18,311 nucleotides of DNA, taken from assembly GCA_000004985.1 (NCBI GenBank), contig GG738961.1; one strand, given 5' to 3'. Positions 1-18,311 of this stretch are shown here, one piece after another. Source of the stretch: Naegleria gruberi. Its lineage: Eukaryota. The position numbers were made by a program, and so were the translations under genes. Below the pieces are notes generated by a model that saw only the letters and a list, made by a program, of their open reading frames with translations, was not told where the DNA came from and ran no database searches. Within the stretch, counting starts at the first letter, position 1. Each line of letters begins with the position of its first letter.

Positions 1-242
1 GAAAGACTGAACACCTCACATTCGTTCCATTATTTAATGCTCATGAATTAATTGGAGATTTCGGAAGAAAACCAGATGAAATTGTAGATTTGGCAGTAAT
101 GAAAGGAAATGATTTATATTGTGGAATGATTATGTGTAGAGAAGGAATTCAAAAAGGAATAATTGAAATGGAAAATTATTTACGGAGATTTGCTGTGCAC
201 AATGGAGCCATGACTTTGAGTGATGTCACTTTGCATTTCTAA
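1..242 (+). CDS. C-terminal ~79 codons of an unidentified protein-coding gene; the 5' part lies outside the window
   Basis: Frame 3 is open from position 3 to the TAA at 240-242. It translates as ...FVPLFNAHELIGDFGRKPDEIVDLAVMKGNDLYCGMIMCREGIQKGIIEMENYLRRFAVHNGAMTLSDVTLHF*. Codon usage matches the other genes here (AGA, CAA, GGA, GAA). A single clean stop is followed by AT-rich 3' flank. I do not recognise the family. Confidence 0.45.
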   Translation, partial: KTEHLTFVPLFNAHELIGDFGRKPDEIVDLAVMKGNDLYCGMIMCREGIQKGIIEMENYLRRFAVHNGAMTLSDVTLHF

Positions 243-732
243 TAATTTTAGTACGTCATTCTGTAATCTCCAAAATATTCAAAATCCATCTCGTTTTAAT
301 AAATTCCTCACAAAATGAAACTCTTTTGTAAAGTTGTAACTGCCAATGTTCTGTTTATTGTGAATTTTGGAAGTTTGACAATCTTCTTTTATCCATGTTC
401 ACTCGTAGTAACCATCGGTAAAGAAATGAGCTATGTTAAGTTTCGGTTCAGTGTTTGAGTTGATAATAATTTGCAATTTAAACAAGAGACAATAAACCTG
501 GTCTTTATTATTCTAAATTACACTAATTCAAAGTTTATTCTAGAATTGCAAACTTCATTTCCCTGTGCATTGGAACTCTTCGTAATTGCAATGAAACAAA
601 TGAAAGAGGTAGTAACTTTCGAACAATGAACTTGCTATTCTCCACAAGTTTAAATCAAACCTCCGTTCAGTTCGTATCCAAACAAAATCAAAAAAAACAG
701 AAACTTTAATTATAACCTACCATATCAAAATA

Positions 733-1873
733 ATGGATCTCTACATTCCTTCTGATTTAAACAATTGTGATGATGATTTTTGTGACGAAATGTTGCCAGT
801 TGAAGAAAAATTAGAAAGAAGAATGGATGAATTGACAATTTTAGATGGTGATGCATTTGTCTCAAACACAACAAGCAATTCCCAAACAACAGGTGCTTGG
901 ATTCGTGCTAAACATTTGGAAGAAGAAGGTTATGATCAAGAATTGGTTGACCACAGTGAAAATTTTGTCGATTTGGTTATTGTAATGGATTGTACTGGAT
1001 CAATGTCTGGTGAAATTGAAGTTGCCAAACGAACTGTCACTACTATCATCTCAACACTTCATGAAAAGTTTCAATCTGATTTGAGATTTTCAGCTGTCAG
1101 TTATAGAGATCACACTGATGATTATGCAGTTAAGGAATTCCCATTTACAAAGGATTTAAATAAGGCAAAGGGTTATATCAATACAATGTCAGCTCAAGGT
1201 GGAGGTGATCATCCAGAAGCTTTGGCATCAGCTCTCTATGTCATTAATGAAATGCCATTTAATAAGAAGGGAAAGAAGATTGTTGTTTGGGTTGCTGATG
1301 CTCCTCCACATGGAATGAAATGTTATTGATTGGATCAAATTGGGATCTGCTCTCCAGGAGAAGAATGTTGTCTTTTATGGAATTTTGTGTGAAAGAGCAA
1401 AGGATGATCAACAATTGACCTTGTTTATGGATTTTTTGACAACTAAAACTGATGGTAAATGTTTACTCTTAACAGATGCTAATAAGATTCCAAATTTGGT
1501 GATTAATGGTTGTGTGGAAGATGAAGATATGGACAATCTTGTTGCAAAGAAAATTAAAGAATTGGGAGAAGAGAAGGTCAATAATTTGGGAATGGATGAT
1601 TTACTTAAACTTATTCACAATGAAACATCCTCTGAAAAGGTTGCCCAAGTTAAAACCTTTGAAATTGCCTCAACCAGAACTAAGAATTTGATGCAATATT
1701 CAACCTTATCTGATATGCAATGTGATGATTTTGTTTCAGCTCAGAATGTCATGACTAGAAATGATGATTGTGAGGCAGAGAGCGATTCATTTGATGATTA
1801 TGGAGGTGTTTACTACAAAGCACCAACAATGGAAAAGGTGGCAAAGGCCTATTCCAGAAATTTGAGAAAGTAA
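733..1873 (+). CDS. von Willebrand factor type A (vWA) domain protein. It is coded in two overlapping frames (733-1329 and 1319-1873) that need a +1 shift near 1320-1327, so it is a frameshifted gene, a pseudogene or an assembly error
   Basis: The ATG at 733 sits in an A-rich context (caaaataATGg). ORF1 carries vWA hallmarks: a hydrophobic beta strand plus a MIDAS-like DxTGSM (DLVIVMDCTGSMSGEI), then FSAVSYRDH, GGGDHPEALASAL and KIVVWVADAPPHG. The frame-1 stop is a TGA at 1327-1329. Frame 2 is open from 1319 (NVIDWIKLGSALQEKNVVFYGILCERAKDDQQL...) to the TAA at 1871-1873, with the same codon bias and a charged C-terminus. No canonical intron reconciles the frames: the only GT is at 1322, and the AGs at 1356, 1359 and 1362 give 36, 39 and 42 nt introns that read t+ga. 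Removing one T in tgttattga would fuse the frames into a ~375 aa product. Confidence 0.65.
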
Positions 1874-1901
1874 TTTTGCATTTTTGTAAATAGTGTACAT
1901 A

Positions 1902-1907
1902 AATAAA
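1902..1907 (+). promoter_or_regulatory. candidate AATAAA polyadenylation signal for the vWA gene
   Basis: An AATAAA hexamer lies ~30 nt downstream of the TAA stop at 1871-1873. The region is AT-rich, so chance occurrence is likely. Confidence 0.2.
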
Positions 1908-1954
1908 TAGAATTTCGAGAATATTTATTAAACTATAGGATAGGCATTCTAATT

Positions 1955-2693
1955 GGGTTTGGTTAGGATTCAGAGTTGATTTATTTGGGTTATTTAAGAG
2001 ATTACTTAGTGAAGATTCATATCATTGATTATATTTCTTATCGTCTATAAATGATGTAAATTTGATGGTTTCATTTCTTGTATTGATAGATATTTAAAGG
2101 TCAGGTCAGTACTAACTTTTGAATTATGGACTTTGAGAAGTCAAATGTTTGGGACGTGAATCTACTCATTAGATTGAATAGGTTTTGCTAATAAAAGAAC
2201 ATTTCATTGATTTATTGATTATAACGGTCAAATTGAGTTGAATGGAAGTGAATCTAATGTTGATTCATCGTGGATGGGTAGTTTCGCCACGAAGTGGTGC
2301 AACTACCAACCTTTGTAGATTGAATCAGGTTGATTTTCATGCAATATGAAATATAGCATTATCAAGAGTGTGATTGTTCACCAATTCAATGATCAATATT
2401 CAATAATCGGTTTGATTTCAATCAATAGCTTGATCATCAAGCTTTGATTTAATATTCCAGTAATCAACGGCAGTCTATTTTTAAATTTAATCAAAGACCA
2501 TATATAGTATCTAGACTTTTATGAAACTATCTAGATGTGTTCTATATTGAATAATATATTTGAAAATGAGAAGAATTAACTCTTCTATTGAGTTTTATTG
2601 GTATTGCAAGGTATTTCGATTATAATAATCTACACAGAAATCACACTTGAAATATAAACTGTATTACAATGTATGAGAAACATAACGGTGGGG
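1955..2693. repeat. subtelomeric repeat family, copy A (739 bp visible, truncated by the gap at 2694)
   Basis: It starts with GGGTTTGGTTAGGATTCAGAGTTGATTTATTTGGG. It is co-linear and ~95% identical by eye with 9241-9968 (copy B) and 12797-13560 (copy C). The shared internal landmarks are: gtcaggtcagtactaac, caatagcttgatcatcaagctttga (a palindromic core) and ctacacagaaatcacacttgaaatataaactgta. Confidence 0.8.
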
Positions 2694-3023
2694 NNNNNNN
2701 NNNNNNNNNNNNNNNNNNNNNNNNNNNNNNNNNNNNNNNNNNNNNNNNNNNNNNNNNNNNNNNNNNNNNNNNNNNNNNNNNNNNNNNNNNNNNNNNNNNN
2801 NNNNNNNNNNNNNNNNNNNNNNNNNNNNNNNNNNNNNNNNNNNNNNNNNNNNNNNNNNNNNNNNNNNNNNNNNNNNNNNNNNNNNNNNNNNNNNNNNNNN
2901 NNNNNNNNNNNNNNNNNNNNNNNNNNNNNNNNNNNNNNNNNNNNNNNNNNNNNNNNNNNNNNNNNNNNNNNNNNNNNNNNNNNNNNNNNNNNNNNNNNNN
3001 NNNNNNNNNNNNNNNNNNNNNNN
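2694..3023. other. assembly gap (330 N), with a further single N at 3037
   Basis: Run of n characters. Confidence 0.97.
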
Positions 3024-3703
3024 AATTCATATGGTANATATGGAAATATTCTATAATTACTTTTCAAGGCAATTTTGCAAAATTCCAAATTAGATTTTAA
3101 ATTTTCAGATAAATATCTAAATGATGTTTCTGAATTTTTAATTGAATTCAGTGCTATACCCTTGTTATTCTTAACGTCTTCATTTGTAACGTATTTCATC
3201 AATGATCCATTTATAGAAAGTGCCATATTACACAATTCAATGTCAGATCTCAATTCTTGTGATGCAAATTCAAATGCTTGAACATTACTTTGCAATGCTA
3301 TTTTAACTAATTCTCTATCATTTTGATAATTTGGAAAATATTTCAATAAATTTCCATTTCTAGAAAGTATAATTTTCATAATATTGCTGTTACTGGTCAA
3401 TAGTTTGGATTGATATTTAATTAATTGATAAGTTAACATTTTAATATTGTAATCACTAGAATTTTTCAAACTTGTTTCAATTAACTCTTCATCATTTAAA
3501 ATTTTATCATATTCACTCTCCGGAAATTTTTCATAATTGATCAATAATTCATCTCCATCTTTTTTTACAATTTCCAATCTTTCACTTTGAAGTGTATTTA
3601 AAGTGAATTTACTTGATGAAAAACGAGCCAATGATGATGAACTGAAGAGCTGTGGTTTTATCAATTTGTGTGTTAAAACACCAAGCTTGACAAGTTGTTT
3701 CAT
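3024..3703 (-). CDS. DUF4116-like repeat protein with an N-terminal mitochondrial-presequence-like segment; partial, with the 3' end lost in the gap
   Basis: On the minus strand the ATG at 3703-3701 sits in caaaaaaaaATGaaa context. About 226 codons are open down to the gap with no stop seen. Tandem ~30-aa units (LKYFPNYQNDRELVKIALQSNVQAFEFASQELRSDIELCNMALSINGSLMKYVTNEDVKNNKGIALNSIKNSETSFRYLSENLKSNLEFCKIALKSN) fit the DUF4116 aL.yas.eL.nd.e.v..A...ng pattern. This is from memory and not searched. The first 41 residues (MKQLVKLGVLTHKLIKPQLFSSSSLARFSSSKFTLNTLQSE) are basic and hydroxylated with no acidic residue. Confidence 0.55.
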
Positions 3704-3734
3704 TTTTTTTTGATTGGTAAAGCTTTGTTCATAT

Positions 3735-4030
3735 CAAGTTCTGGTTCCGATCACAAGCCTGTCCAACCTTGTATGCTTCTAGTTGAACTACTGGTGTTGT
3801 TTTGGACTCTGGTGATGGTGCCTGCCACTGTTCCAATTTATGAAGGTTATGCTTTGCCACACTCTTCATCCAAACATTCATCATCCTCAAAATGACCATT
3901 ATCAACAGATGATAAAGTGTGGAGATTGCAGCATTGCCAAATACAATTCCGACACTTCTTGGTAGTTGCCAGCTGGCAGGTTGGGACAAGTGGCCTTAAT
4001 AGATTTAAGAGTGTTGTCAGGTCCCGCCAA
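3735..4030. other. GC-rich island (~45-50% GC against ~30% background) of unknown nature: ncRNA, internal exon or insertion
   Basis: Composition shifts abruptly (gttctggttccgatcacaagcctgtccaacc ... gtcaggtcccgccaattccc). The overlapping ORFs on both strands (3695-3895 + and 3729-3989 -) start only at TTG, with no in-frame ATG. The block ends 25 nt upstream of the DUF4116 gene's ATG on the minus strand. Confidence 0.3.
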
Positions 4031-4576
4031 TTCCCTTTGTAAAATAAAAGGCTATTTTTACCTTAAAATCGATGTAGTTTTGAACTAATATGAATTGGAT
4101 GAATCGACTAGTACGTATTTATTTAAGGCTGTGATATTCCGATCATCATCATCATTATTATAGTTGGTTAACAGGACGATTTATCATCATCAACAACAAA
4201 AACAAGAACAGCTTCCGAATCAGATCAAACCACAGAGGGTAGGAAGTTGCAACTCTGCTATCAAAGGTCCTGGTGTTTTTTGCTTGCTAACTTTGACGAC
4301 ACGTTTGTACCCTCATTGTTGCACAAATACCACTCTCAATTGCTTAAATGTTAGTATCATGATTAATTAATTATTAAGACTTGTTCTCTTTTCAGAAATA
4401 CATCTCTTCAATAATAACACACTGTAAGTAGTAAATGAGAATATCATCATGACTAATATATCAGAATTTAAACGATCTATTTTAATTGGTAAAGTGTAGA
4501 TTTATTTCAATCTGAATGAAGGTTTTCTTGAACAATTTTCTAATAACAATAATATAACAATAACAGTAAAGTGACC

Positions 4577-5025
4577 ATGATAAAGGAGTGGAACTCTTTT
4601 GTAAGTATAATATCACTCAACATTTAATAATCAAAGAGGTCGCAGCAGTTTAAGTATTTCAGATTATGTAACAATGTAATGAATTGATTCATTTAAGGTA
4701 GGTTTATCATTATCAAGAAAATTGTTCAAAAGAACAGCATACTCAAACTTATCTTTTACATTGGACTAATGTCCCATCAACCAAGAAGACTTATGAATTT
4801 CCTGAAAGTGGAAATGTAGAAATTATTTATATTTATCACGATGAGCTCTTTTCAAATATTCAAATTGTGACAAAAGACACTGTTATTCCAATTACTATTC
4901 CAATTAAATTACAAATATCGAATGTGGATATCCCAAAACAATTACCACAAACACTCTCATTAAGTGACTCGGTCTTTCCACAGGAAAGAGTTTCGCTGAA
5001 AAATGTTTCCTGGAAATTCCAGTAA
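4577..5025 (+). CDS. candidate spliced protein-coding gene of uncertain structure. The ATG at 4577 plus 7 codons is followed by a canonical 62-nt intron (4601-4662). A 107-codon ATG-less ORF (4702-5025) lies downstream
   Basis: A textbook donor (ttttGTAAGTat at 4601) pairs with an acceptor (agtatttcAG at 4661-4662). Further donor and acceptor pairs lie at 4350/4394-4395 (aatGTTAGT ... ctcttttcAG) and 4424/4463-4464 (actGTAAGT ... atatcAG). The 4702-5025 ORF reads VYHYQENCSKEQHTQTYLLHWTNVPSTKKTYEFPESGNVEIIYIYHDELFSNIQIVTKDTVIPITIPIKLQISNVDIPKQLPQTLSLSDSVFPQERVSLKNVSWKFQ*. I could not assemble a consistent exon chain by hand. Confidence 0.2.
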
Positions 5026-5745
5026 ACAATATTGATTCATCCAAATATCCAAAAACTATTATTCGGAGTGTTGTTGATGAAGTATTTGAATGGTACTATT
5101 CGAAGAAAGTTTGGTTGATGATGAAGTACATGTTGAAATATGGTCAATGTATATTTTGAATATATACATGTACCTATCTTGATGAAAACAAAATTCCAAT
5201 CTATGAAACTCGAATATGTATTGCTATATACTATTACAAATAATCCCACATTTGAATTTCTGATAATGGTCCAGTACATCGGAAGATATTGGCCAATTAG
5301 TGAAAAATAACTTTTGTCAAAATAATACTATTCTCAAATTAAAGTCTACAAATACTATTGTTATAATGATGGTAAAAATTAATGATGATGGTTGGTGTGT
5401 GTTCTGATGATGATTCACCAACTTGAATTTTTCCAATATCAAAATTACTATCTAATTCCATAACGATAAACTTCCACATAAAACTACTATTTTTACTATT
5501 ATATTGATGATGTATAGATGATGTATAGATGATGAGGTTCAATTCTTGGAGTGGGAAGATGAAGAACCACTCCGAAAATAAGCTACTCATAAAATTGATA
5601 TTTTTTATGAATGCAAGATACTTCTTTGTTGAGGTCGCTGTGAATATTCTTTCGATGTCTTTGAGGTTCAAAACTGTGCAATTAGCTTCGGACTCAAAAC
5701 AATTAAGGAAGTATTGCTTCCATTTTTATTTTGCTTTACTGGATT

Positions 5746-5783
5746 TTCCAGGAAAGATTTCTTTAGGAAACTCTTTCCTGGAA
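5746..5783. repeat. perfect 12-bp inverted repeat (TTCCAGGAAAGA ... TCTTTCCTGGAA) with a 14-nt spacer. It is a hairpin in the 3' flank of the minus-strand gene
   Basis: The arms lie at 5746-5757 and 5772-5783 and are exact reverse complements. The hairpin lies 64-101 nt beyond the stop of the 5847-6329 minus-strand CDS. Confidence 0.5.
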
Positions 5784-5846
5784 TACCCCAGCCAGAAATC
5801 TTTCCGGCCACACTTGTCGTTATCTTTAGCAACCATTTTTACTATT

Positions 5847-6329
5847 TTACAACAAACTTTTTGCCTCTGTTGCTAACACCACAAAGTCGTCCAGGGTCTG
5901 TGGTGGCGTATTGCCTCCGGCAAGTTGCGCTAATTGGGCAAACATCATCAATCCTCTGACTTTGTCTGACCTATTGGCACAAGTGTTTGCTAAGCTGAAA
6001 ATATCATTGAACTCAGACTCAATAGTTTGGAAGAACTCAATGAAATCCATTCCCGTTATGTACATTGGATCAATATTTGTTTTTGTTGAGAATTGATACA
6101 AGAAAAAGAATGGATCGGTAGTTAAAATTTGTGCAATTTCCTCATCACTAAGTGGGCTTACAATATTTTTAACGCTTTCTTTGAAGTTGTGATTTAGGAT
6201 TGTTAATTCTGTCACTGTATCAACCAAAGGCATATCAAACTTATCCATTTGTTTTAGTATTTCACAATAGACAAGAAGAGCCTCCTTTTTCGTAGCTCGG
6301 ATAGAGAGTACAAGAATTGTATCAAACAT
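5847..6329 (-). CDS. hypothetical protein, probably the terminal exon of a larger minus-strand gene
   Basis: The minus-strand ORF runs from the ATG at 6329-6327 (MFDTILVLSIRATKKEALLVYCEILKQMDKF...LAQLAGGNTPPQTLDDFVVLATEAKSLL*) to the stop at 5849-5847. The same frame stays open a further ~100 nt upstream (ENGVLYPKLNIHIRHTRGFLLGHTTPDWLSVRLLSD) to a TAA near 6433 with no in-frame ATG, so an upstream exon is likely. The residue composition is protein-like. I do not recognise the family. Confidence 0.45.
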   Translation of the reverse strand: MFDTILVLSIRATKKEALLVYCEILKQMDKFDMPLVDTVTELTILNHNFKESVKNIVSPLSDEEIAQILTTDPFFFLYQFSTKTNIDPMYITGMDFIEFFQTIESEFNDIFSLANTCANRSDKVRGLMMFAQLAQLAGGNTPPQTLDDFVVLATEAKSLL

Positions 6330-6578
6330 ATCTGACAACAGTCGCACAGATAACCAATCTGGAGTGGTGTGACCAAGAAGGAAGCCTCTCGTGTGTCTGA
6401 TGTGAATGTTCAGTTTGGGATATAAAACACCATTTTCTTAGTAGTACCGTTTGGTGGTTTAGTGTGTTTCTCGATCTAAATTCGAGTTTGAATATAATTT
6501 TTGTACATATTCACAATTTATTTTGTTGTTATATGAGAATTGATTTTTTGTATTTTATTTTTTTGATAAATTATTGGG

Positions 6579-6581
<3 letters not shown>

Positions 6582-6609
<28 letters not shown>
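6582..6609. repeat. (AT)14 dinucleotide microsatellite
   Basis: It reads atatatatatatatatatatatatatat. Confidence 0.95.
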
Positions 6610-6612
<3 letters not shown>

Positions 6613-6922
6613 AACAAAAATTATATTTATCTATGTTAGAAAAATCATTTCCCTTTTATTCTTCATCATGCTCCTCCTCATGTTTTTTACACATCCTGTC
6701 TTTATCAAATCCCATTCTCACTACATCCTTTTCATCATAATTCCTCGCAAATTCATTTATCTGTTCAGATTACATTTATTTACCCCTTAAAAGTGATTTT
6801 CCATTCTTCATTTTACATGATATTTTCGGTGATTTCTTGGTAAGAACTCTTTATTAGTAGACTTTTTGTATTTCATTTTTTTCTGTCAACAGGTTTCACA
6901 TATTATAAACAACAAAAGGTTT

Positions 6923-9214: not shown

Positions 9215-9240
9215 CGAAAAATTATCCAATCATCCAGGCT

Positions 9241-11922
9241 CTTGTTAGGATTCAGAGTTGATTTATTTGGGTTATTTAAGAGATTACTTAGTGAAGATTT
9301 ATATCATTGATTATATTTCTTATCATCTATAAATGATGTAAATTTGATGGTTTCATTTCTTGTATTGATAGATATTTAAAGGTCAGGTCAGTACTAACTT
9401 TTGAATTATGGACTTTTAGAAGTCAAATGTTTGGGACGTGAATCTACTCATTAGATTGAATAGGTATTGCTAATAAAGTAACATTTCATTGATTTATTGA
9501 TTATAACGGTCAAATTGAGTTGAATGGAAGTGAATCTAATGTTGATTCATCGTGGAATGGTAGTTTCGCCACGTACAAACCTTTGTAGATTGAATCAGGT
9601 TGATTTGCATCTCTCCAATATGTAGCATTATCAAGAGAGTGATTATTCTCCAATTCAATGACCAATATTCAATAATCGGTTTGATTTGAATCAATAGCTT
9701 GATCAACAAGCTTTGAATCAAGATTCCAGTAATCAACGGCAGTCTATTTTTAAATTTGACCAAAGACCATATATAGTATCTTGACTTTCATGATCTGGCA
9801 ACTATCTAGATGTGTTCTTTTTTGAATAATCTATTTGAAAATGAGAAGAATTAACTCTTCTATTGAGTTTTATTGGTATTTCATGGTTTTACGATTATAA
9901 TAATCTACACAGAAATCACACTTGAAATATAAACTGTATTACAATGTATGAGAAACATAATGGTGGTGGAATTAATCAATAACTCGTTGAAATGACTGAG
10001 ATGGAATGTAAACTATGGTCTATTTGTTATGTAACGGTGACTAGACAGTGTCAATTTCATCAAATTATTTCAAACTGATAACATTCAATAAAAAAACCAC
10101 TCTATACATCAAATATACCATATAGAATGAGTTTCAATATTTAATATTGTGAACTGACTCTGTTGGATACCAGCTCTATAAATATAACAATATGAAAAGT
10201 GTCAACATTCAATTTCACATTCATGTTACTATGAAGAGTCATCATTATATCATCTAAATAGGTTGTATATCAAGTTTCAGTGGAATTGACTGTCTACATA
10301 TTGAGATGTGCATACTAAGGTTAAAGAAGTGTCACCTTCACTGATTACTGACATGAATATAACAATTGAATGTATTATTCTTGTATAATTAATTCATTAT
10401 TCAATGATTTTGATATGATGGTAAAATTTAATTTTGAAATTAAGATTCTTCCCTATTGATTACCTTAGATGTTCCTTAGTTGACTTGAAGATATTGAGCC
10501 ATGAATATAAAACTTTCTCAGATTGTTCTCCTCATCAAGAGGAGTGTATTCATATTTGATACTTGTTTGACATTTTGAAAAATGAATGAGATGGAGTATA
10601 TTCTATATGTTGAAATGTGACAATTTGACAGATTGTTATTATTATCATATTGAATTCAATTCTAAAACACTAAAATTGATACCAGTTGTATATAAGTGTG
10701 ACTAAATGTATCTGGTAAAGTTACGTGATGGTTGGATATACTTTCATTGAGACAGTGTGTACACTTGGATATAAGCACTATTGACATTAAATATTTACTG
10801 ATTGACTGAATGAAAGTATCATGAATTGTTTCAAAACGTGTATAGATGTATATAAATGATGTATTGAATGTGTATTATCAATTCTAGACTAATTGCATAT
10901 AAAATAAGTGATTTAGAGCATAATCTTTGATTTTATGTCAAAGTTCTATAGTATAGTGATAGAGTTGACAACTCAATATCTACTGAGCCAATATTCATGA
11001 AATTGATATTATATGCTAATTAGAGTGTCTACATATTATGATATCAATTTCATTGAAATTGGAGTTGATTCTATATCCTTCAGATTTCTTCAATGAAATA
11101 TCACCATGTACTATCTAACGGATGCATTTCTTGAAATGAAATTATATAATTTGATGAAAGTCCACTTTATTTGAGATGTAGAACACGATATTATCATTTA
11201 TTTTGAGATTGGTAACTTTTCCTAAAGTCTCATCCTTAATGGTCTTAATTGACTAAAAGAGGTCAAGGAGAGATTTCAAAACATAAAATAAATGATATTT
11301 TCGAGATGTACTAATGATTTCCAATCGATTGATATGTATTTTGTAGATTGAGGATGTGGTTTTCTGTATTCAAGATTTCCTCCTGATCTTCCCAAGTCAA
11401 CCTTGATAAATCACTCTTTACCTTACTGAAAGATGGAATGTTCACCAAAACGTCTAAAAACTGAATTATATACATTATCGGAGATGTGGAACATGATGGT
11501 AATGTTTCATAAAGTGGTCATTTTCCAGAAATTCATCCGTGTCCATAGTTTATCAGATGGCATGTTAGCCATGTGTGATTGAGGGAAGAAATCTTTAAAT
11601 ATTAAAGTTAAAATAAATTTGATATTCGATGTTTACTCATCAAATGGAACATTTTCATATTAGGATTCAATATGTTTTGATGAGAAACTCAAAAGTTATC
11701 GTTGACCTCTTTTACCTCACAACTTCCCTTTTCACTTGATACTTTTATATCTACAGACTTGAACTTTTATAATTTGATATGAAAGTGATTATGAATGTTA
11801 TTAATGATGATATAGACTATATAATCTCATTAAAGGATTTTGAAATTAACATTCTTCCTATAGTTTCATTTTACAAATTTTAATCTGACATTATTTACAA
11901 AGTTAATATTTTATAAATTGAA
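9241..11922. repeat. subtelomeric repeat family, copy B (~2.7 kb, the only copy fully sequenced)
   Basis: Positions 9241-9968 align with copy A and 9241-10199 with copy C's pre-gap part. Positions ~11560-11922 align with copy C's post-gap tail (17219-17586). No ORF is credible; only a 75-aa low-complexity ORF is present. The copy ends at a GGGTTTGGTTATCGG motif (11923-11937). Confidence 0.8.
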
Positions 11923-12796
11923 GGGTTTGGTTATCGGAACCTCGGATACCTCTTACTCCAATCTCTTATTGATTTAAGATTTTGAAATTGTTTATTATTG
12001 AATTTTTATAAAGAGTATTGACACGAATCAGAAGCTTCTTATTGTGACAACACTTGATAGAAGAATGGGAAAGTGGTTCAACATATTGAAAGTGAACAAT
12101 CTCAAGATTTGGAACTCTTCTTCATGAAGAGGAGGTTATTGGGTGGTGACTAGAGAGAAACATTTCCTTGTAGCTTTTCTACTAGTAAATGATTAATTGA
12201 CCAAGATGTTGACCTATAATATGGAAACACAATAAAATTTAATAATACTGATAAATACAAGTAGTGAATATGAATGGTAATCATAATTCACTGAAAAAAT
12301 CATGATTGGATCCATTATGAGACTTTTGGAAGTCAACTTGGATGGCAATAGGGGAGCTTTCGATGTGATTAACACTTTTAAAGGGATATGAATATTTTAT
12401 TGGATAAAATATGTCATCGCTGTACTTTATCACTAAATGTTGAATATCATGATGTTATAATCTATATTTCCAATTTGGGAAATGTTGTAATGTCAATGTT
12501 TAATTGAAATATTGCCATCATACCAATAATTGATTTTATACTATAAAAATGATATTATACACTATAATTGATATATATATGAATATATGATTGTAATATT
12601 TCAATTTTAACATTTATTAATGACGTGGGTTGTTCACTAAGGTAGTAACTTTGTCATATGATAACTATCTAAGATGATATTAAAATCATTCCAAAATTGA
12701 TTCGATGAGAGTATTTGATGATTATAACATGGTAATATTGAATTGGTGTTGATTAGTACCATTCATGACATGTAAGAATGTTACCTTTTTGTCAAT

Positions 12797-15700
12797 GGGG
12801 TTTGGTTAGGATTCAGAGTTGATTTATTTGGGTTATTTAAGAGATTACTTAGTGAAGATTCATATCATTGATTATATTTCTTATCATCTATTAATGATGT
12901 TAATTTGATGGTTTCATTTCTTATATTGATAGATATTTAAAGGTCAGGTCAGTACTAACTTTTGAATTATGGACTTTGAGAATTCAAATGTTTGGGACGT
13001 GAATCTACTCATTAGATTGAATAGGTATTGCTAATAAAGGAACATTTCATTGATTTATTGATTATAACGGTCAAATTGAGTTGAATGGAAGTGAATCACA
13101 TGTTGATTCATAGTGGTTGGGTAGTTTCGCCACGAAGTGGTGCAACTACCAACCTTTGTAGATTGAATCAGGTTGATTTGCATGCAATCTGAAATATGTA
13201 GCATGATTCAAGTGATTATTCACCAATTCAATGATCAATATTCAATAATCGGTTTGATTTCAATCAATAGCTTGATCATCAAGCTTTGAATTAATATTCC
13301 AGTAATTAACGGCAGTCTATTTTTAAATTTAATCAAAGACCATATATAGTATCTTGACTTTTATGATCTGGAAACTATCTAGATGTGTTCTATATTGAAT
13401 AATCTATTTGAAAATGAGATGAATTAACTCTTCTATTGAGTTTTATTGGTATTGTATGCTATTACGATTATAATAATCTACACAAAAATCACTCTTGAAA
13501 TATAAACTGTAGTAGAACGTTTGAGAAACATAATGGTGGCGGAATTAACCAATAACTCGTTGAAATGACTGAGATGGAATGTAAACTATGGTCTATTTGT
13601 CATGTAATGGTGACTAGACCGTGTCAATTTCATCAAATTATTTCAAACTGATTACAATCAATAAAAACCCGTTCCATACATCAAACATATCATATAGAAT
13701 GAGTTTCAATATTTAACATTGTGAACTGACTCTGTTGGATACCATCTCTATAAATATAACAAGATGAAAAGNNNNNNNNNNNNNNNNNNNNNNNNNNNNN
13801 NNNNNNNNNNNNNNNNNNNNNNNNNNNNNNNNNNNNNNNNNNNNNNNNNNNNNNNNNNNNNNNNNNNNNNNNNNNNNNNNNNNNNNNNNNNNNNNNNNNN
13901 NNNNNNNNNNNNNNNNNNNNNNNNNNNNNNNNNNNNNNNNNNNNNNNNNNNNNNNNNNNNNNNNNNNNNNNNNNNNNNNNNNNNNNNNNNNNNNNNNNNN
14001 NNNNNNNNNNNNNNNNNNNNNNNNNNNNNNNNNNNNNNNNNNNNNNNNNNNNNNNNNNNNNNNNNNNNNNNNNNNNNNNNNNNNNNNNNNNNNNNNNNNN
14101 NNNNNNNNNNNNNNNNNNNNNNNNNNNNNNNNNNNNNNNNNNNNNNNNNNNNNNNNNNNNNNNNNNNNNNNNNNNNNNNNNNNNNNNNNNNNNNNNNNNN
14201 NNNNNNNNNNNNNNNNNNNNNNNNNNNNNNNNNNNNNNNNNNNNNNNNNNNNNNNNNNNNNNNNNNNNNNNNNNNNNNNNNNNNNNNNNNNNNNNNNNNN
14301 NNNNNNNNNNNNNNNNNNNNNNNNNNNNNNNNNNNNNNNNNNNNNNNNNNNNNNNNNNNNNNNNNNNNNNNNNNNNNNNNNNNNNNNNNNNNNNNNNNNN
14401 NNNNNNNNNNNNNNNNNNNNNNNNNNNNNNNNNNNNNNNNNNNNNNNNNNNNNNNNNNNNNNNNNNNNNNNNNNNNNNNNNNNNNNNNNNNNNNNNNNNN
14501 NNNNNNNNNNNNNNNNNNNNNNNNNNNNNNNNNNNNNNNNNNNNNNNNNNNNNNNNNNNNNNNNNNNNNNNNNNNNNNNNNNNNNNNNNNNNNNNNNNNN
14601 NNNNNNNNNNNNNNNNNNNNNNNNNNNNNNNNNNNNNNNNNNNNNNNNNNNNNNNNNNNNNNNNNNNNNNNNNNNNNNNNNNNNNNNNNNNNNNNNNNNN
14701 NNNNNNNNNNNNNNNNNNNNNNNNNNNNNNNNNNNNNNNNNNNNNNNNNNNNNNNNNNNNNNNNNNNNNNNNNNNNNNNNNNNNNNNNNNNNNNNNNNNN
14801 NNNNNNNNNNNNNNNNNNNNNNNNNNNNNNNNNNNNNNNNNNNNNNNNNNNNNNNNNNNNNNNNNNNNNNNNNNNNNNNNNNNNNNNNNNNNNNNNNNNN
14901 NNNNNNNNNNNNNNNNNNNNNNNNNNNNNNNNNNNNNNNNNNNNNNNNNNNNNNNNNNNNNNNNNNNNNNNNNNNNNNNNNNNNNNNNNNNNNNNNNNNN
15001 NNNNNNNNNNNNNNNNNNNNNNNNNNNNNNNNNNNNNNNNNNNNNNNNNNNNNNNNNNNNNNNNNNNNNNNNNNNNNNNNNNNNNNNNNNNNNNNNNNNN
15101 NNNNNNNNNNNNNNNNNNNNNNNNNNNNNNNNNNNNNNNNNNNNNNNNNNNNNNNNNNNNNNNNNNNNNNNNNNNNNNNNNNNNNNNNNNNNNNNNNNNN
15201 NNNNNNNNNNNNNNNNNNNNNNNNNNNNNNNNNNNNNNNNNNNNNNNNNNNNNNNNNNNNNNNNNNNNNNNNNNNNNNNNNNNNNNNNNNNNNNNNNNNN
15301 NNNNNNNNNNNNNNNNNNNNNNNNNNNNNNNNNNNNNNNNNNNNNNNNNNNNNNNNNNNNNNNNNNNNNNNNNNNNNNNNNNNNNNNNNNNNNNNNNNNN
15401 NNNNNNNNNNNNNNNNNNNNNNNNNNNNNNNNNNNNNNNNNNNNNNNNNNNNNNNNNNNNNNNNNNNNNNNNNNNNNNNNNNNNNNNNNNNNNNNNNNNN
15501 NNNNNNNNNNNNNNNNNNNNNNNNNNNNNNNNNNNNNNNNNNNNNNNNNNNNNNNNNNNNNNNNNNNNNNNNNNNNNNNNNNNNNNNNNNNNNNNNNNNN
15601 NNNNNNNNNNNNNNNNNNNNNNNNNNNNNNNNNNNNNNNNNNNNNNNNNNNNNNNNNNNNNNNNNNNNNNNNNNNNNNNNNNNNNNNNNNNNNNNNNNNN

Positions 15701-17586
15701 NNNNNNNNNNNNNNNNNNNNNNNNNNNNNNNNNNNNNNNNNNNNNNNNNNNNNNNNNNNNNNNNNNNNNNNNNNNNNNNNNNNNNNNNNNNNNNNNNNNN
15801 NNNNNNNNNNNNNNNNNNNNNNNNNNNNNNNNNNNNNNNNNNNNNNNNNNNNNNNNNNNNNNNNNNNNNNNNNNNNNNNNNNNNNNNNNNNNNNNNNNNN
15901 NNNNNNNNNNNNNNNNNNNNNNNNNNNNNNNNNNNNNNNNNNNNNNNNNNNNNNNNNNNNNNNNNNNNNNNNNNNNNNNNNNNNNNNNNNNNNNNNNNNN
16001 NNNNNNNNNNNNNNNNNNNNNNNNNNNNNNNNNNNNNNNNNNNNNNNNNNNNNNNNNNNNNNNNNNNNNNNNNNNNNNNNNNNNNNNNNNNNNNNNNNNN
16101 NNNNNNNNNNNNNNNNNNNNNNNNNNNNNNNNNNNNNNNNNNNNNNNNNNNNNNNNNNNNNNNNNNNNNNNNNNNNNNNNNNNNNNNNNNNNNNNNNNNN
16201 NNNNNNNNNNNNNNNNNNNNNNNNNNNNNNNNNNNNNNNNNNNNNNNNNNNNNNNNNNNNNNNNNNNNNNNNNNNNNNNNNNNNNNNNNNNNNNNNNNNN
16301 NNNNNNNNNNNNNNNNNNNNNNNNNNNNNNNNNNNNNNNNNNNNNNNNNNNNNNNNNNNNNNNNNNNNNNNNNNNNNNNNNNNNNNNNNNNNNNNNNNNN
16401 NNNNNNNNNNNNNNNNNNNNNNNNNNNNNNNNNNNNNNNNNNNNNNNNNNNNNNNNNNNNNNNNNNNNNNNNNNNNNNNNNNNNNNNNNNNNNNNNNNNN
16501 NNNNNNNNNNNNNNNNNNNNNNNNNNNNNNNNNNNNNNNNNNNNNNNNNNNNNNNNNNNNNNNNNNNNNNNNNNNNNNNNNNNNNNNNNNNNNNNNNNNN
16601 NNNNNNNNNNNNNNNNNNNNNNNNNNNNNNNNNNNNNNNNNNNNNNNNNNNNNNNNNNNNNNNNNNNNNNNNNNNNNNNNNNNNNNNNNNNNNNNNNNNN
16701 NNNNNNNNNNNNNNNNNNNNNNNNNNNNNNNNNNNNNNNNNNNNNNNNNNNNNNNNNNNNNNNNNNNNNNNNNNNNNNNNNNNNNNNNNNNNNNNNNNNN
16801 NNNNNNNNNNNNNNNNNNNNNNNNNNNNNNNNNNNNNNNNNNNNNNNNNNNNNNNNNNNNNNNNNNNNNNNNNNNNNNNNNNNNNNNNNNNNNNNNNNNN
16901 NNNNNNNNNNNNNNNNNNNNNNNNNNNNNNNNNNNNNNNNNNNNNNNNNNNNNNNNNNNNNNNNNNNNNNNNNNNNNNNNNNNNNNNNNNNNNNNNNNNN
17001 NNNNNNNNNNNNNNNNNNNNNNNNNNNNNNNNNNNNNNNNNNNNNNNNNNNNNNNNNNNNNNNNNNNNNNNNNNNNNNNNNNNNNNNNNNNNNNNNNNNN
17101 NNNNNNNNNNNNNNNNNNNNNNNNNNNNNNNNNNNNNNNNNNNNNNNNNNNNNNNNNNNNNNNNNNNNNNNNNNNNNNNNNNNNNNNNNNNNNNNNNNNN
17201 NNNNNNNNNNNNNNNNNNTCAACATAGTTGACCGTATGATGGTTGAGGGAAGAAATCTTTAAATATGAAAGTTAAAATAAATTTGATATTCGATGTATAC
17301 TCATCAAATGGAACATTTTCATGGCAGGATTCAATATGTTTAGATGAGAAACTCAAAAGTTATAGTTGACCTATTGTACCTCACAACTTCCCTTTTCACT
17401 TGATACTTTTATACCTACAGACATGAACTTTTGAAATTTTATATGAAAGTGATTATGAATGTTGTTAACGATGATATAGACTATATAATCTCATTAAAGG
17501 ATTTTGAAATTATCATTCTTCCTATAGTTGTATATTTGAAATTTTAATCTGATATTATTTACAAAGTTAATATTTTATAAATTGAA
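12797..17586. repeat. subtelomeric repeat family, copy C (starts GGGGTTTGGTTAGGATTCAGAGTTG; interior replaced by the gap)
   Basis: Positions 12797-13771 are ~95-97% identical to copy A and copy B starts. Positions 17219-17586 match the copy B tail. An ~870 bp spacer (11923-12796) with no second copy in the window separates copies B and C. Confidence 0.75.
13772..17218. other. assembly gap (3447 N) inside repeat copy C
   Basis: Run of n characters. The equivalent interval in copy B is only ~1.36 kb (10200-11560). Confidence 0.97.
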
Positions 17587-17671
17587 AAACTAAATATACC
17601 ACGTTGTTCTACTCATCATTTCCTATCGAATGATATAAAATTTAATGATATTTGAATAAGTTTATAATTTT

Positions 17672-17722
17672 GGGCTAGGGTTTGAACGTTGGGTTTAGAA
17701 GAATTGGGTTTGGATTAGAGTT
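17672..17722 (+). repeat. interstitial cluster of degenerate telomere-like motifs
   Basis: It reads gggctagggtttgaacgttgggtttagaagaattgggtttggattagagttg. It begins with the same tgggctagg junction motif found at the true telomere junction (18021-18029). It ends in gggtttggattagagttg, which resembles the repeat-unit start gggtttggttaggattcagagttg. Confidence 0.5.
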
Positions 17723-18021
17723 GTTTTGATTTGTTACTTCGGTGGCACCATGGTCTTTATGATCTAATATAGAGTCTTTAAGTGAATCTTGGGCTTTTGG
17801 AAAGGTTTTTCAGTAAAGTTTTAAAAAAAGTATATACTTTCTATCTAGATATCGAGATTTGGTGTATTTGTTGTTTGCATTGTTATTTGGAAAGTGGTAA
17901 AGATTTCGATATTCTTTGTTGGGTTTGGTTATCGTTTCGTACTCATTGGATCTTCATTATTATTGAAATACATAATCAATGATATACATCATTAAATAGG
18001 TTACAATCTCAGCTATCCAGT

Positions 18022-18311
18022 GGGCTAGGTTGGGTTTGGGTTTGGGTTTGGGTTTGGGTTTGGGTTTGGGTTTGGGTTTGGGTTTGGGTTTGGGTTTGGG
18101 TTTGGGTTTGGGTTTGGGTTTGGGTTTGGGTTTGGGTTTGGGTTTGGGTTTGGGTTTGGGTTTGGGTTTGGGTTTGGGTTTGGGTTTGGGTTTGGGTTTG
18201 GGTTTGGGTTTGGGTTTGGGTTTGGGTTTGGGTTTGGGTTTGGGTTTGGGTTTGGGTTTGGGTTTGGGTTTGGGTTTGGGTTTGGGTTTGGGTTTGGGTT
18301 GGGTTGGGTTG
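18022..18311 (+). repeat. telomere repeat array (GGGTTT)n, G-strand 5'->3' toward the window end
   Basis: A degenerate junction (gggctaggtt) is followed by ~45 perfect GGGTTT hexamers in constant phase from 18032 to 18295. The last 16 nt are GGGTT x3 + G (18296-18311). Confidence 0.92.

What the first reader, a model, noticed from the sequence alone, without database searches (positions are those of the whole stretch)
1955..2693. A truncated copy of the subtelomeric repeat sits about 16 kb from the telomere, between the vWA and DUF4116 genes and directly against an assembly gap
Copy A starts with the same GGGTTTGGTTAGG seed 80 bp after the vWA gene's 3' end. It runs into the N gap at 2694. 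On the far side of the gap the 3' end of the minus-strand DUF4116 gene appears immediately. Two readings fit. The repeat may have dispersed or transposed into an intergenic region and taken the DUF4116 gene's 3' end with it. Alternatively the scaffold join across the gap is wrong and the 1-2693 segment really abuts another repeat copy.
Basis: partly seen in the sequence, partly recalled or inferred. Interest (0 to 1): 0.5.

Follow-up and report, generated by a model that had tools for sequence, protein, structure and literature searches.

The report
Naegleria subtelomeric repeat joined by telomere stump
The repeat copy is real: it is the first 739 bases of a non-coding subtelomeric element of the amoeba Naegleria gruberi, joined to a decayed gene copy through a short stump of telomere repeat, which is the ordinary footprint of telomere-mediated break repair and not a transposition.

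Summary
The window is a whole 18,311-bp scaffold of Naegleria gruberi NEG-M and ends in 47 TTTGGG telomere repeats.

Window 1955-2693 is 94% identical to 12798-13539 and 92% to 9244-9966. It starts with GGGTTTGGTTAGG 81 nt after the vWA stop codon and runs into a 330-N gap. Beyond the gap an open minus-strand DUF4116 ORF begins.

- **The repeat.** It is a 2.68-kb non-coding block (M1). It alternates with a 0.88-kb block (M2). Both blocks start with GGGTTTGGTTA in telomere orientation.
- **The left flank.** It is a pseudogenised duplicate of a vWA locus. Its homology to an intact copy (metagenome contig L001) stops 0-23 nt before the motif.
- **Other scaffolds.** On two other NEG-M scaffolds, annotated proteins run from a gene straight into the same M1 start. 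One of them passes through about 17 codons of translated telomere repeat.

The motif is therefore a telomere stump, and the junction is a telomere-mediated repair scar.

It is not settled whether copy A is a short templated insertion next to its native DUF4116 neighbour, an old chromosome end inside a patchwork, or a scaffold misjoin. An intact vWA locus also has a convergent DUF4116 neighbour, which favours a correct join.

Verdict: an ordinary kind of feature, not described for Naegleria in the papers I could search.

The parts
1..1931 (+). Duplicated chromosome-specific segment: 3' end of an upstream gene (1-242) plus the vWA pseudogene. It is 98.05% identical at aligned positions to metagenome contig L001 1177-3168.
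733..1873 (+). vWA gene copy, pseudogenised by a 47-nt deletion at about 1316 that is flanked by GGAAT/GGAAAT microhomology. The GenBank model EFC36002.1 is the 198-aa stump (733-1329).
1932..1954 (+). 23-nt junction filler with no match elsewhere. Its last 8 nt (TTCTAATT) may continue the ancestral flank, because L001 has the same 8-mer directly after the homology end.
1955..1967 (+). Telomere-like motif GGGTTTGGTTAGG (telomere stump) at the proximal edge of copy A.
1955..2693 (+). Copy A: the first 739 nt of the non-coding subtelomeric block M1, cut off by the gap.
2694..3023 (.). Assembly gap, 330 N (an estimate). The only link between contig 1-2693 and contig 3024-6922.
3024..3703 (-). DUF4116 ORF: ATG at 3703, 222 readable codons before the single N at 3037 and 4 more beyond it, still open at the gap. 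The 3' end is missing. No annotated relative was found.
3754..3862 (+). Actin pseudogene fragment of about 36 codons with a stop and a frameshift, 50 nt from the DUF4116 ATG.
9237..11922 (+). Copy B: full-length M1 (2.68 kb). Its motif is degenerate (GGCTCTTGTTAGG), and it is preceded by 22 nt found nowhere else in the window.
11923..12797 (+). Block M2 (875 nt), starting with GGGTTTGGTTATCG.
12798..13771 (+). Copy C: the first 974 nt of M1, starting with GGGTTTGGTTAGG and cut off by a gap.
17219..17586 (+). Copy D: the last 368 nt of M1. It ends at the same position as copy B (17586 = 11922).
17587..18029 (+). Terminal block T. It contains a fossil telomere junction (TGGGCTAGG plus degenerate GGGTTT repeats, 17671-17715) and a GGGTTTGGTTATCG motif at 17921.
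18030..18311 (+). Telomere, 47 x TTTGGG. The live junction is TGGGCTAGG at 18021.
   Evidence: PMC3622300

Best explanation
Copy A is a genuine copy of the proximal 739+ nt of M1. M1 is a 2.68-kb non-coding subtelomeric block of Naegleria gruberi whose first bases (GGGTTTGG) are a stump of TTTGGG telomere repeat. Here it is fused to the 3' flank of a decayed duplicate of a vWA locus. The junction is the scar of a telomere-mediated repair event. Inferred sequence of events: a break about 60-80 nt past the vWA stop codon; telomerase, or a residual telomere, supplies a few GGGTTT repeats; this G-rich 3' end anneals to the telomere-like start of an M1 block at another chromosome end; M1 is copied. 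Shown: the in-contig junction; the motif at every block border, always in telomere orientation; loss of homology to the intact locus at the motif; and the same junction on two other scaffolds, one with a longer telomere tract. Not settled: whether copying stopped after about 1 kb and the end rejoined next to the native, convergent DUF4116 neighbour, deleting that gene's 3' end (templated insertion, my slight preference), or whether it ran to a chromosome end that later acquired more sequence (patchwork subtelomere).
For: (1) The junction lies inside one contig. Copies A, B and C differ by 5-8%, so A is a distinct physical copy and not a collapsed one. (2) GGGTTTGGTTA occurs 4 times, all on the + strand, at block borders 1955, 11923 and 12798 and inside the terminal block T at 17921, against 0.23 expected. 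GGGTTT hexamers outside the telomere number 7 on + and 1 on -, against 2.7 expected. (3) Homology to the intact locus L001 (98% over 1.9 kb) ends 0-23 nt before the motif. (4) P0021 (EFC38103.1, on a 261-kb scaffold) is a vWA paralog up to ...DDYVS and then reads GFGVGFGLGLGGGVWVW. GF, GL and VW are the three reading frames of GGGTTT. It continues LGFRVDLFGLFNILLSEDLYH, which is the translated M1 start. (5) P0027 (NAEGRDRAFT_73163, on a 306-kb scaffold), a TPR protein, ends with 23 aa identical to the translation of window 1957-2025, and the preceding Arg codon, if it is AGG or CGG, would complete the motif. (6) T holds a second, degenerate copy of the live telomere junction. This shows that sequence has been added beyond an older end. 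(7) For a correct join and a native neighbour: L001 has a convergent DUF4116 gene 124 nt after vWA, while 0 of about 55 genes in other Naegleria-type loci are DUF4116. (8) TTTGGG is the candidate N. gruberi telomere repeat (PMC3622300).
Against: No DNA from the other two scaffolds could be fetched, so their junctions are known only through translated gene-model tails. The motif has the same 8-13 nt length at most borders. It may therefore be inherited as part of the block and not made anew at each event. Copy B lacks a clean motif. For the insertion variant: the window and L001 DUF4116 fragments show only repeat-unit-level similarity (31% over 88 aa) and no DNA overlap. 'Same gene' then needs a gap of at least about 620 nt or a deletion. 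An actin pseudogene fragment 50 nt from the DUF4116 ATG makes the far contig look like patchwork. No mechanism step was observed directly.
Confidence: 0.6

Rival explanations
1. Scaffold misjoin. Contig 1-2693 is the proximal boundary (unique sequence | telomere stump | M1 array) of a different chromosome end, or contig 3024-6922 is misplaced. Copy A then continues as a full M1 array and is not 16 kb from this telomere. This is compatible with the telomere-stump origin of the junction. It competes only with the stated location and with 'truncated'.
For: The scaffold contains two different unique-to-M1 junctions, at 1955 and at about 9237. Contig 1 ends about one Sanger read length (739 nt) into the repeat, as expected if only reads anchored in unique sequence could be placed. 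The two gene-model tails show the same unique-to-M1 junction at two further genomic sites. Gap sizes in this scaffold fit the repeat geometry poorly: 3447 N against 1355 or 4916.
Against: The copies differ by 5-8%, so reads and mates should be placeable. A specific 330-N estimate implies spanning clones. The gene order vWA(+) then DUF4116(-) matches the intact locus L001, which a random misjoin would reproduce only rarely.
Confidence: 0.25
2. M1 and M2 are non-autonomous retro-elements that target telomeres. On the minus strand their RNA would end in ...TAACCAAACCC-3', which can pair with the TTTGGG overhang. Reverse transcription then adds the block to a chromosome end, and telomerase re-caps it.
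For: Both blocks share the identical 11-mer at the proximal border, in one orientation, head to tail. The telomere tract at junctions varies in length: 8-13 nt here and in P0027, about 51 nt in P0021. B and D end at the same distal position. Naegleria genomes do carry RT-encoding LINE-like elements (L007).
Against: M1 has no RT or other domain in six frames, no ORF longer than 75 aa, and no hammerhead or other Rfam match. No poly(A) tail was seen by eye and no LTR was found. No 5'-truncation series could be observed. No paper links Naegleria to telomere-associated retroelements.
Confidence: 0.1
3. Classical transposon, or a chance-dispersed repeat inserted into the intergenic region. The telomere-like start would be incidental.
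For: The repeat lies between two genes, and one end is hidden in the gap.
Against: There are no TIRs or LTRs, no coding capacity and no known RNA. Three independent junctions start exactly at the motif, one through a longer telomere tract. All full or terminal copies sit next to a real telomere.
Confidence: 0.04

Closest known systems
Chlamydomonas reinhardtii Sultan and Suber subtelomeric repeats (Chaux-Jukic et al. 2021, PMC8287924)
   Same: Non-coding (or mostly non-coding) head-to-tail subtelomeric repeats. Each unit carries a telomere-like sequence at one border, oriented like the telomere. That sequence is proposed to act as a seed for telomere healing after breaks.
   Different: Sultan units are shorter than the 2.68-kb and 0.88-kb blocks here (about 850 bp, from my memory of that paper; one search does not state the length). 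Sequence similarity to Sultan or Suber was not tested. The Naegleria copies are only 92-95% alike. Here the motif also sits at junctions with broken genes on other scaffolds, and the terminal block T, not M1, abuts the telomere.
Saccharomyces cerevisiae Y' elements separated by internal TG1-3 tracts (own knowledge; PMC11042809 listed)
   Same: Tandem subtelomeric units with short interstitial telomere tracts between them. They are spread between ends by recombination or break-induced replication primed in the telomeric tracts.
   Different: Y' encodes a helicase, while M1 has no ORF or domain. There is no X-like core. No functional data exist for Naegleria.
Patchwork subtelomeres, and interstitial telomeric repeats inserted at break sites in primates and rodents (own knowledge: Mefford & Trask; Nergadze et al.)
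   Same: Blocks are bounded by short, degenerate telomere tracts in telomere orientation. Pseudogene fragments are present (vWA, actin). Telomerase-seeded repair of internal breaks is a candidate for the insertion variant.
   Different: This is a single draft scaffold of a heterolobosean amoeba. The block catalogue and the number of chromosome ends are unknown.
Telomere-associated retroelements (Athena/Coprina Penelope-like elements, SART/TRAS, HeT-A/TART; own knowledge)
   Same: Short telomere repeats at the proximal junction, uniform orientation and head-to-tail stacking at chromosome ends.
   Different: No reverse transcriptase, no hammerhead ribozyme and no identified partner element; no poly(A) tail was seen by eye.

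Membership tests
Subtelomeric repeat with telomere-like border (Sultan / Y'-type architecture) | Copies lie directly proximal to a terminal telomere tract | tested here: met
   Copy D (17219-17586) and block T are followed by 47 x TTTGGG at the scaffold end.
Subtelomeric repeat with telomere-like border (Sultan / Y'-type architecture) | Telomere-like sequence at the unit border, in the orientation of the telomere G-strand | tested here: met
   GGGTTTGGTTA at 1955, 11923, 12798 and 17921, all on the + strand, against 0.23 expected. Copy B has a degenerate version.
Subtelomeric repeat with telomere-like border (Sultan / Y'-type architecture) | Head-to-tail arrays | tested here: met
   B-M2-C with 3561-nt spacing. 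The array is interrupted by gaps, so the copy number is unknown.
Subtelomeric repeat with telomere-like border (Sultan / Y'-type architecture) | Present at several chromosome ends | tested here: inconclusive
   The M1 start is found on three NEG-M scaffolds through gene-model tails. Whether those sites are chromosome ends could not be checked, because the scaffolds are not retrievable.
Yeast Y' element | Helicase-encoding ORF | tested here: not met
   No ORF longer than 75 aa and no Pfam hit in six frames.
Telomere-targeted retroelement (PLE Athena/Coprina, SART/TRAS, HeT-A) | Reverse transcriptase ORF, or a demonstrable RT-encoding partner with matching ends | tested here: not met
   No RVT or other domain in six frames of the unit. 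A partner could not be searched for in the N. gruberi genome.
Telomere-targeted retroelement (PLE Athena/Coprina, SART/TRAS, HeT-A) | Hammerhead ribozyme (PLE) or poly(A) 3' end (LINE-type) | tested here: not met
   No Rfam match at E <= 1 in the repeat. No A or T run at either block end.
Telomere-targeted retroelement (PLE Athena/Coprina, SART/TRAS, HeT-A) | Short telomere repeats at the proximal junction; variable 5' truncation distally | tested here: inconclusive
   The junction repeats are present. Only two distal ends are visible and they coincide. The distal end of copy A is hidden in the gap.
DNA transposon / MITE / LTR element | Terminal inverted or long terminal repeats and target-site duplication | tested here: not met
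   No inverted or direct repeat pairs the ends of M1. The TSD is not testable because the distal end of A lies in the gap.
DUF4116 (PF13475) protein | Pfam match above the gathering score | tested here: met
   E = 8.1e-31, 105.8 bits against a cut-off of 24.9, three stretches.
vWA-domain protein (N. gruberi vWFA family) | Pfam VWA match and an intact ORF | tested here: not met
   The VWA domains match and the protein is 99% identical to P0001 over aligned residues. A 47-nt deletion shifts the frame, so this copy is a pseudogene.

The most novel reading that the evidence does not exclude
M1 and M2 are dedicated chromosome-end modules of Naegleria. Either they are non-coding blocks added to ends, and to internal breaks, by reverse transcription primed on the TTTGGG overhang, or they are a selected array of telomerase landing pads that lets broken or eroded chromosomes re-cap. 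In either case the GGGTTTGGTTA motif would be the functional element. This would be the first such system in Heterolobosea.
Probability: 0.12. Interest if true: 0.6.

Novelty: new member of a known kind. Interest (0 to 1): 0.33.

Why it matters
- **Literature.** No description of Naegleria subtelomeres turned up in the searchable papers. Only the candidate TTTGGG telomere repeat has been reported.
- **First outline.** This scaffold, with two gene-model tails from other scaffolds, gives a first outline: non-coding blocks bounded by telomere stumps, joined to broken or decayed genes.
- **Practical consequence 1.** At least two RefSeq proteins (XP_002670847.1 and XP_002671857.1) carry C-terminal tails that are translated telomere or subtelomere DNA.
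- **Practical consequence 2.** The 198-aa vWA model on this scaffold is a pseudogene stump.
- **Limit.** Biologically this is the expected kind of subtelomere dynamics. It does not open a new question.

Tried and rejected
- **Coding capacity of the repeat.** ORF list and six-frame Pfam scan of 9215-12800 found nothing.
- **Known RNAs.** Rfam at E <= 1 and the tRNA scan found nothing relevant.
- **Terminal structures.** No TIRs or LTRs on M1.
- **Gap-spanning sequence.**
  - Homolog searches with the window's DUF4116 (222 aa) and with L001's DUF4116 (186 aa) both gave no hit at E <= 1e-3.
  - Exact look-ups of the N. gruberi proteins P0001, P0021, P0022 and P0027 were not on record, so NEG-M scaffolds cannot be fetched.
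  - A scan of JGI metagenomes with the 222-aa protein gave only a 23%-identical relative.
- **Other copies of M1.** A conserved 24-mer gave 0 hits in metagenome, viral and prokaryotic genome contigs.
- **Conserved vWA-DUF4116 pairing.** No DUF4116 neighbour in N. fowleri, N. lovaniensis or a JGI contig. The N. fowleri downstream gene is unrelated to either DUF4116 fragment.
- **Paralogs or one gene.** I tried to decide this from the pre-repeat region. I rejected the result as evidence because the aligned stretch is itself made of DUF4116 half-units.
- **The 23-nt filler.** No match to 1932-1954 elsewhere.
- **Literature.** Nothing on Naegleria subtelomeres or on Penelope-like elements in Naegleria. 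The Cell 2010 genome paper and the Fulneckova supplement are not held.
- **Intron in the vWA frameshift.** By eye no GT..AG intron in a compatible phase was evident (not checked systematically), and the alignment shows a 47-nt deletion.

Full report
**Identity of the window.** The vWA ORFs are 95-99% identical to Naegleria gruberi vWFA proteins. The cluster of the best hit contains a 198-aa member, EFC36002.1/XP_002668746.1, which sits on a contig of exactly 18,311 bp and equals ORF 733-1329. The window is therefore a complete small scaffold of strain NEG-M. It ends in 47 TTTGGG repeats at 18030-18310. TTTGGG is the candidate telomere repeat proposed for N. gruberi (Fulneckova et al. 2013, PMC3622300). 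The scaffold has four N runs: 2694-3023, 3037, 6923-9214 and 13772-17218.

**The observation.** It is correct.
- Window 1951-2691 matches 12794-13539 at 94.0% and 9244-9966 at 92.0%.
- The three copies (A, B, C) are roughly equidistant, at 92.4-94.6%. A carries the fewest private substitutions: 13, against 28 for B and 26 for C.
- Copy A starts with GGGTTTGGTTAGG at 1955, 81 nt after the vWA stop codon (1871-1873), and runs into the gap at 2694.
- On the far side a minus-strand ORF with three DUF4116 stretches (Pfam E = 8e-31) starts at ATG 3703 and is still open at 3024. What is visible there is the gene's interior, and its 3' end is what is missing.
- 'Truncated' is an inference from the 330-N estimate, not something the sequence shows.

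**Anatomy of the subtelomere.** Self-comparison resolves three kinds of block.
- M1 (9237-11922, 2.68 kb) is present in four places. A holds its first 739 nt, B is full length, C holds its first 974 nt, and D holds its last 368 nt (17219-17586). D ends at the same position as B.
- M2 (11923-12797, 875 nt) lies between B and C.
- T (17587-18029) is a terminal block in front of the telomere.
- M1 and M2 have no ORF longer than 75 aa, no Pfam domain in any of six frames, no Rfam or tRNA match and no terminal inverted or long terminal repeats.
- The 11-mer GGGTTTGGTTA occurs four times, always on the telomere G-strand: at the start of M1 (1955, 12798), at the start of M2 (11923) and inside T (17921). 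Only 0.23 occurrences are expected, and none of 200 shuffles reaches four.
- GGGTTT hexamers outside the telomere number 7 on the + strand and 1 on the - strand, against 2.7 expected.
- T also holds a second, degenerate copy of the live telomere junction. TGGGCTAGG followed by GGGTTT-like repeats occurs at 17671, and the live junction is at 18021. Sequence has therefore been added beyond an older chromosome end at least once.

**The left flank is a decayed duplicate whose homology stops at the motif.** An ENA metagenome contig (L001, 3794 bp) encodes an intact 395-aa vWA protein that is 99% identical to N. gruberi P0001.
- L001 1177-3168 aligns to window 1-1930 at 98.05% identity over aligned positions.
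- Relative to L001 and P0001, the window copy has a 47-nt deletion in the coding sequence, flanked by GGAAT/GGAAAT microhomology. The deletion shifts the frame, so this copy is a pseudogene.
- Homology ends at ...GAATATTTATTA (window 1931). The window then has 23 nt with no match elsewhere. The last 8 of these (TTCTAATT) are also the next 8 nt in L001.
- The ancestral sequence therefore stops 0-23 nt before the motif.

**The same junction occurs on two other scaffolds.**
- P0021 (EFC38103.1, on a 261,328-bp scaffold) belongs to the same 90% cluster. It matches the vWA family closely (identical to P0001 from about residue 54) up to ...DMQCDDYVS and then reads GFGVGFGLGLGGGVWVWLGFRVDLFGLFNILLSEDLYH followed by a stop. 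GF, GL and VW are the dipeptides encoded by (GGGTTT)n in its three frames.
- The remainder of that tail is the translated start of M1. Window 1957-2025 translates to VWLGFRVDLFGLFKRLLSEDSYH followed by a stop, which matches 20 of 23 residues at E = 3e-13.
- A search of 1.84 billion representative proteins with the 31-aa translation of copy B's start found P0027 (NAEGRDRAFT_73163, EFC39113.1, on a 305,921-bp scaffold). It is a TPR protein whose last 23 residues are identical to copy A's translation. The preceding Arg codon, if it is AGG or CGG, would complete GGGTTTGGTTAGG.
- M1 thus abuts at least three different unique sequences, each time exactly at the telomere-like motif. One junction runs through a degenerate telomere tract of about 51 nt, and two junctions lie inside coding sequence.

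**Interpretation of the junction.** The 13-nt 'seed' is a stump of telomere repeat, and the vWA|A junction is a scar of telomere-mediated repair.
- I infer this order of events: a break, addition or retention of a few GGGTTT repeats, annealing to the telomere-like start of an M1 block at another end, and copying of M1.
- None of these steps was observed.
- This architecture matches what has been described for Chlamydomonas Sultan and Suber repeats, where a healing seed was proposed (PMC8287924). It also matches yeast Y' arrays and human subtelomeric patchworks (own knowledge).
- The junction was not produced by a recognisable transposon.

**What lies beyond copy A is not settled.**

Evidence that the scaffold join is correct:
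- The copies differ by 5-8%, so reads should be placeable.
- A specific 330-N estimate implies spanning clones.
- In L001 the vWA gene is followed 124 nt later by a convergent DUF4116 gene (Pfam E = 3e-10). That is the gene order and orientation the scaffold gives.
- None of about 55 genes in seven other Naegleria-type stretches is DUF4116 (N. fowleri, N. lovaniensis, an ENA contig and a JGI contig). A chance match therefore looks unlikely.
- Together these favour a short M1-derived templated insertion between vWA and its native neighbour, or a tandem paralog of that neighbour, with loss of the DUF4116 3' end.

Evidence against a simple insertion:
- L001 shows the last 186 aa of its gene and the window shows the first 222 aa. 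There is no DNA overlap, and only repeat-unit-level protein similarity (31% over 88 aa). 'Same gene' therefore needs a gap of at least about 620 nt or a deletion.
- Neither fragment has an annotated relative.
- An actin pseudogene fragment lies 50 nt from the DUF4116 start codon. This makes the contig look like patchwork.
- The scaffold holds a second unique-to-M1 junction at about 9237.
- Contig 1 ends one read length into the repeat.
- The C-to-D gap (3447 N) fits neither 1355 nor 4916 nt.

My estimates are: join correct with a native or near-native neighbour about 0.5; join correct but an unrelated patchwork about 0.2; misjoin about 0.25.

**Rivals for the mechanism.**
- A telomere-primed retro-element would also give telomere repeats at the proximal border, and Naegleria genomes do carry LINE-like RT genes (L007). 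However, M1 has no RT, no ribozyme and no truncation series in view, and no poly(A) tail was seen by eye.
- A classical transposon is not supported.

**Novelty and interest.** Subtelomeric repeats bounded by telomere stumps, pseudogene-rich patchworks and telomere-seeded repair are all well known. I found no description of them for Naegleria in the searchable literature. I rate this a new member of a known kind, of modest interest. It has a useful by-product for annotation: two RefSeq proteins carry translated telomere or subtelomere tails, and one pseudogene is annotated as a protein.

Noticed in passing
window 733-1873 (deletion at about 1316): The vWA gene on this scaffold is a pseudogene. 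A 47-nt deletion flanked by GGAAT/GGAAAT microhomology shifts the frame. GenBank EFC36002.1 (198 aa) is the resulting stump.
   Followed up: yes
proteins P0021 (XP_002670847.1) and P0027 (XP_002671857.1), on other N. gruberi scaffolds: Two RefSeq proteins have C-terminal tails that are translated telomere repeat (GF/GL/VW runs) and/or the translated start of M1. These are annotation artefacts that mark gene|subtelomere junctions.
   Followed up: yes
window 3754-3862 (+): Actin pseudogene fragment of about 36 codons (Pfam Actin E = 1.5e-6) with an in-frame stop and a frameshift. It lies 50 nt from the DUF4116 start codon on the other strand.
   Followed up: partly
window 4981-5026 and 5735-5780: 46-nt inverted repeat pair, 85% complementary, 708 nt apart. 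It could be the ends of a MITE-like element of about 800 bp. No obvious target-site duplication by eye. A weak sub-threshold mir-9457 Rfam hit covers one arm.
   Followed up: no
window 17671-17715 and 18021-18029: TGGGCTAGG followed by telomere(-like) repeats occurs twice. The live junction is at 18021, and a degenerate 'fossil' junction with three GGGTTT in 35 nt lies about 350 nt inside it.
   Followed up: partly
window 9215-9249: Copy B does not start with the clean motif. It has GGCTCTTGTTAGG, and it is preceded by 22 nt (CGAAAAATTATCCAATCATCCA) that match nothing else in the window or in L001.
   Followed up: partly
window 2276-2306 and 13119-13149: Hairpin-like palindrome GGTAGTTTCGCCACGAAGTGGTGCAACTACC in copies A and C. 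Copy B lacks 12 nt of it, so it is not conserved.
   Followed up: no
window 5847-6430 (-): Open frame of about 193 codons (...HTRGFLLGHTTPDW...EAKSLL*) with no ATG near its start and no Pfam match. It is probably the last exon or a fragment of an unidentified gene.
   Followed up: partly
L001 (ENA ERZ929261 contig k127_478301): An environmental metagenome contig is 98% identical to N. gruberi NEG-M over 1.9 kb and carries the intact vWA locus (RCC1-like genes, a 96-aa gene, vWA, a convergent DUF4116). A close relative of NEG-M is therefore present in that sample.
   Followed up: partly
L007 2928-7576 (N. lovaniensis PYSW02000072.1): A 1526-aa ORF with an endonuclease (Exo_endo_phos) and reverse transcriptase (RVT_1) is inserted between Kelch and RabGAP genes. 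The paralogous locus L006 lacks it. It is a LINE-like retrotransposon in Naegleria.
   Followed up: no
window 18296-18311: The last telomere repeats are irregular (GGGTT GGGTT GGGTTG). This is either variant repeats or low-quality read ends.
   Followed up: no
window 13772-17218: The 3447-N gap matches neither the 1355 nt expected if C and D are one M1 copy nor the 4916 nt expected with one extra M2+M1 unit. Gap sizes in this scaffold are unreliable, or the array has a different structure.
   Followed up: partly
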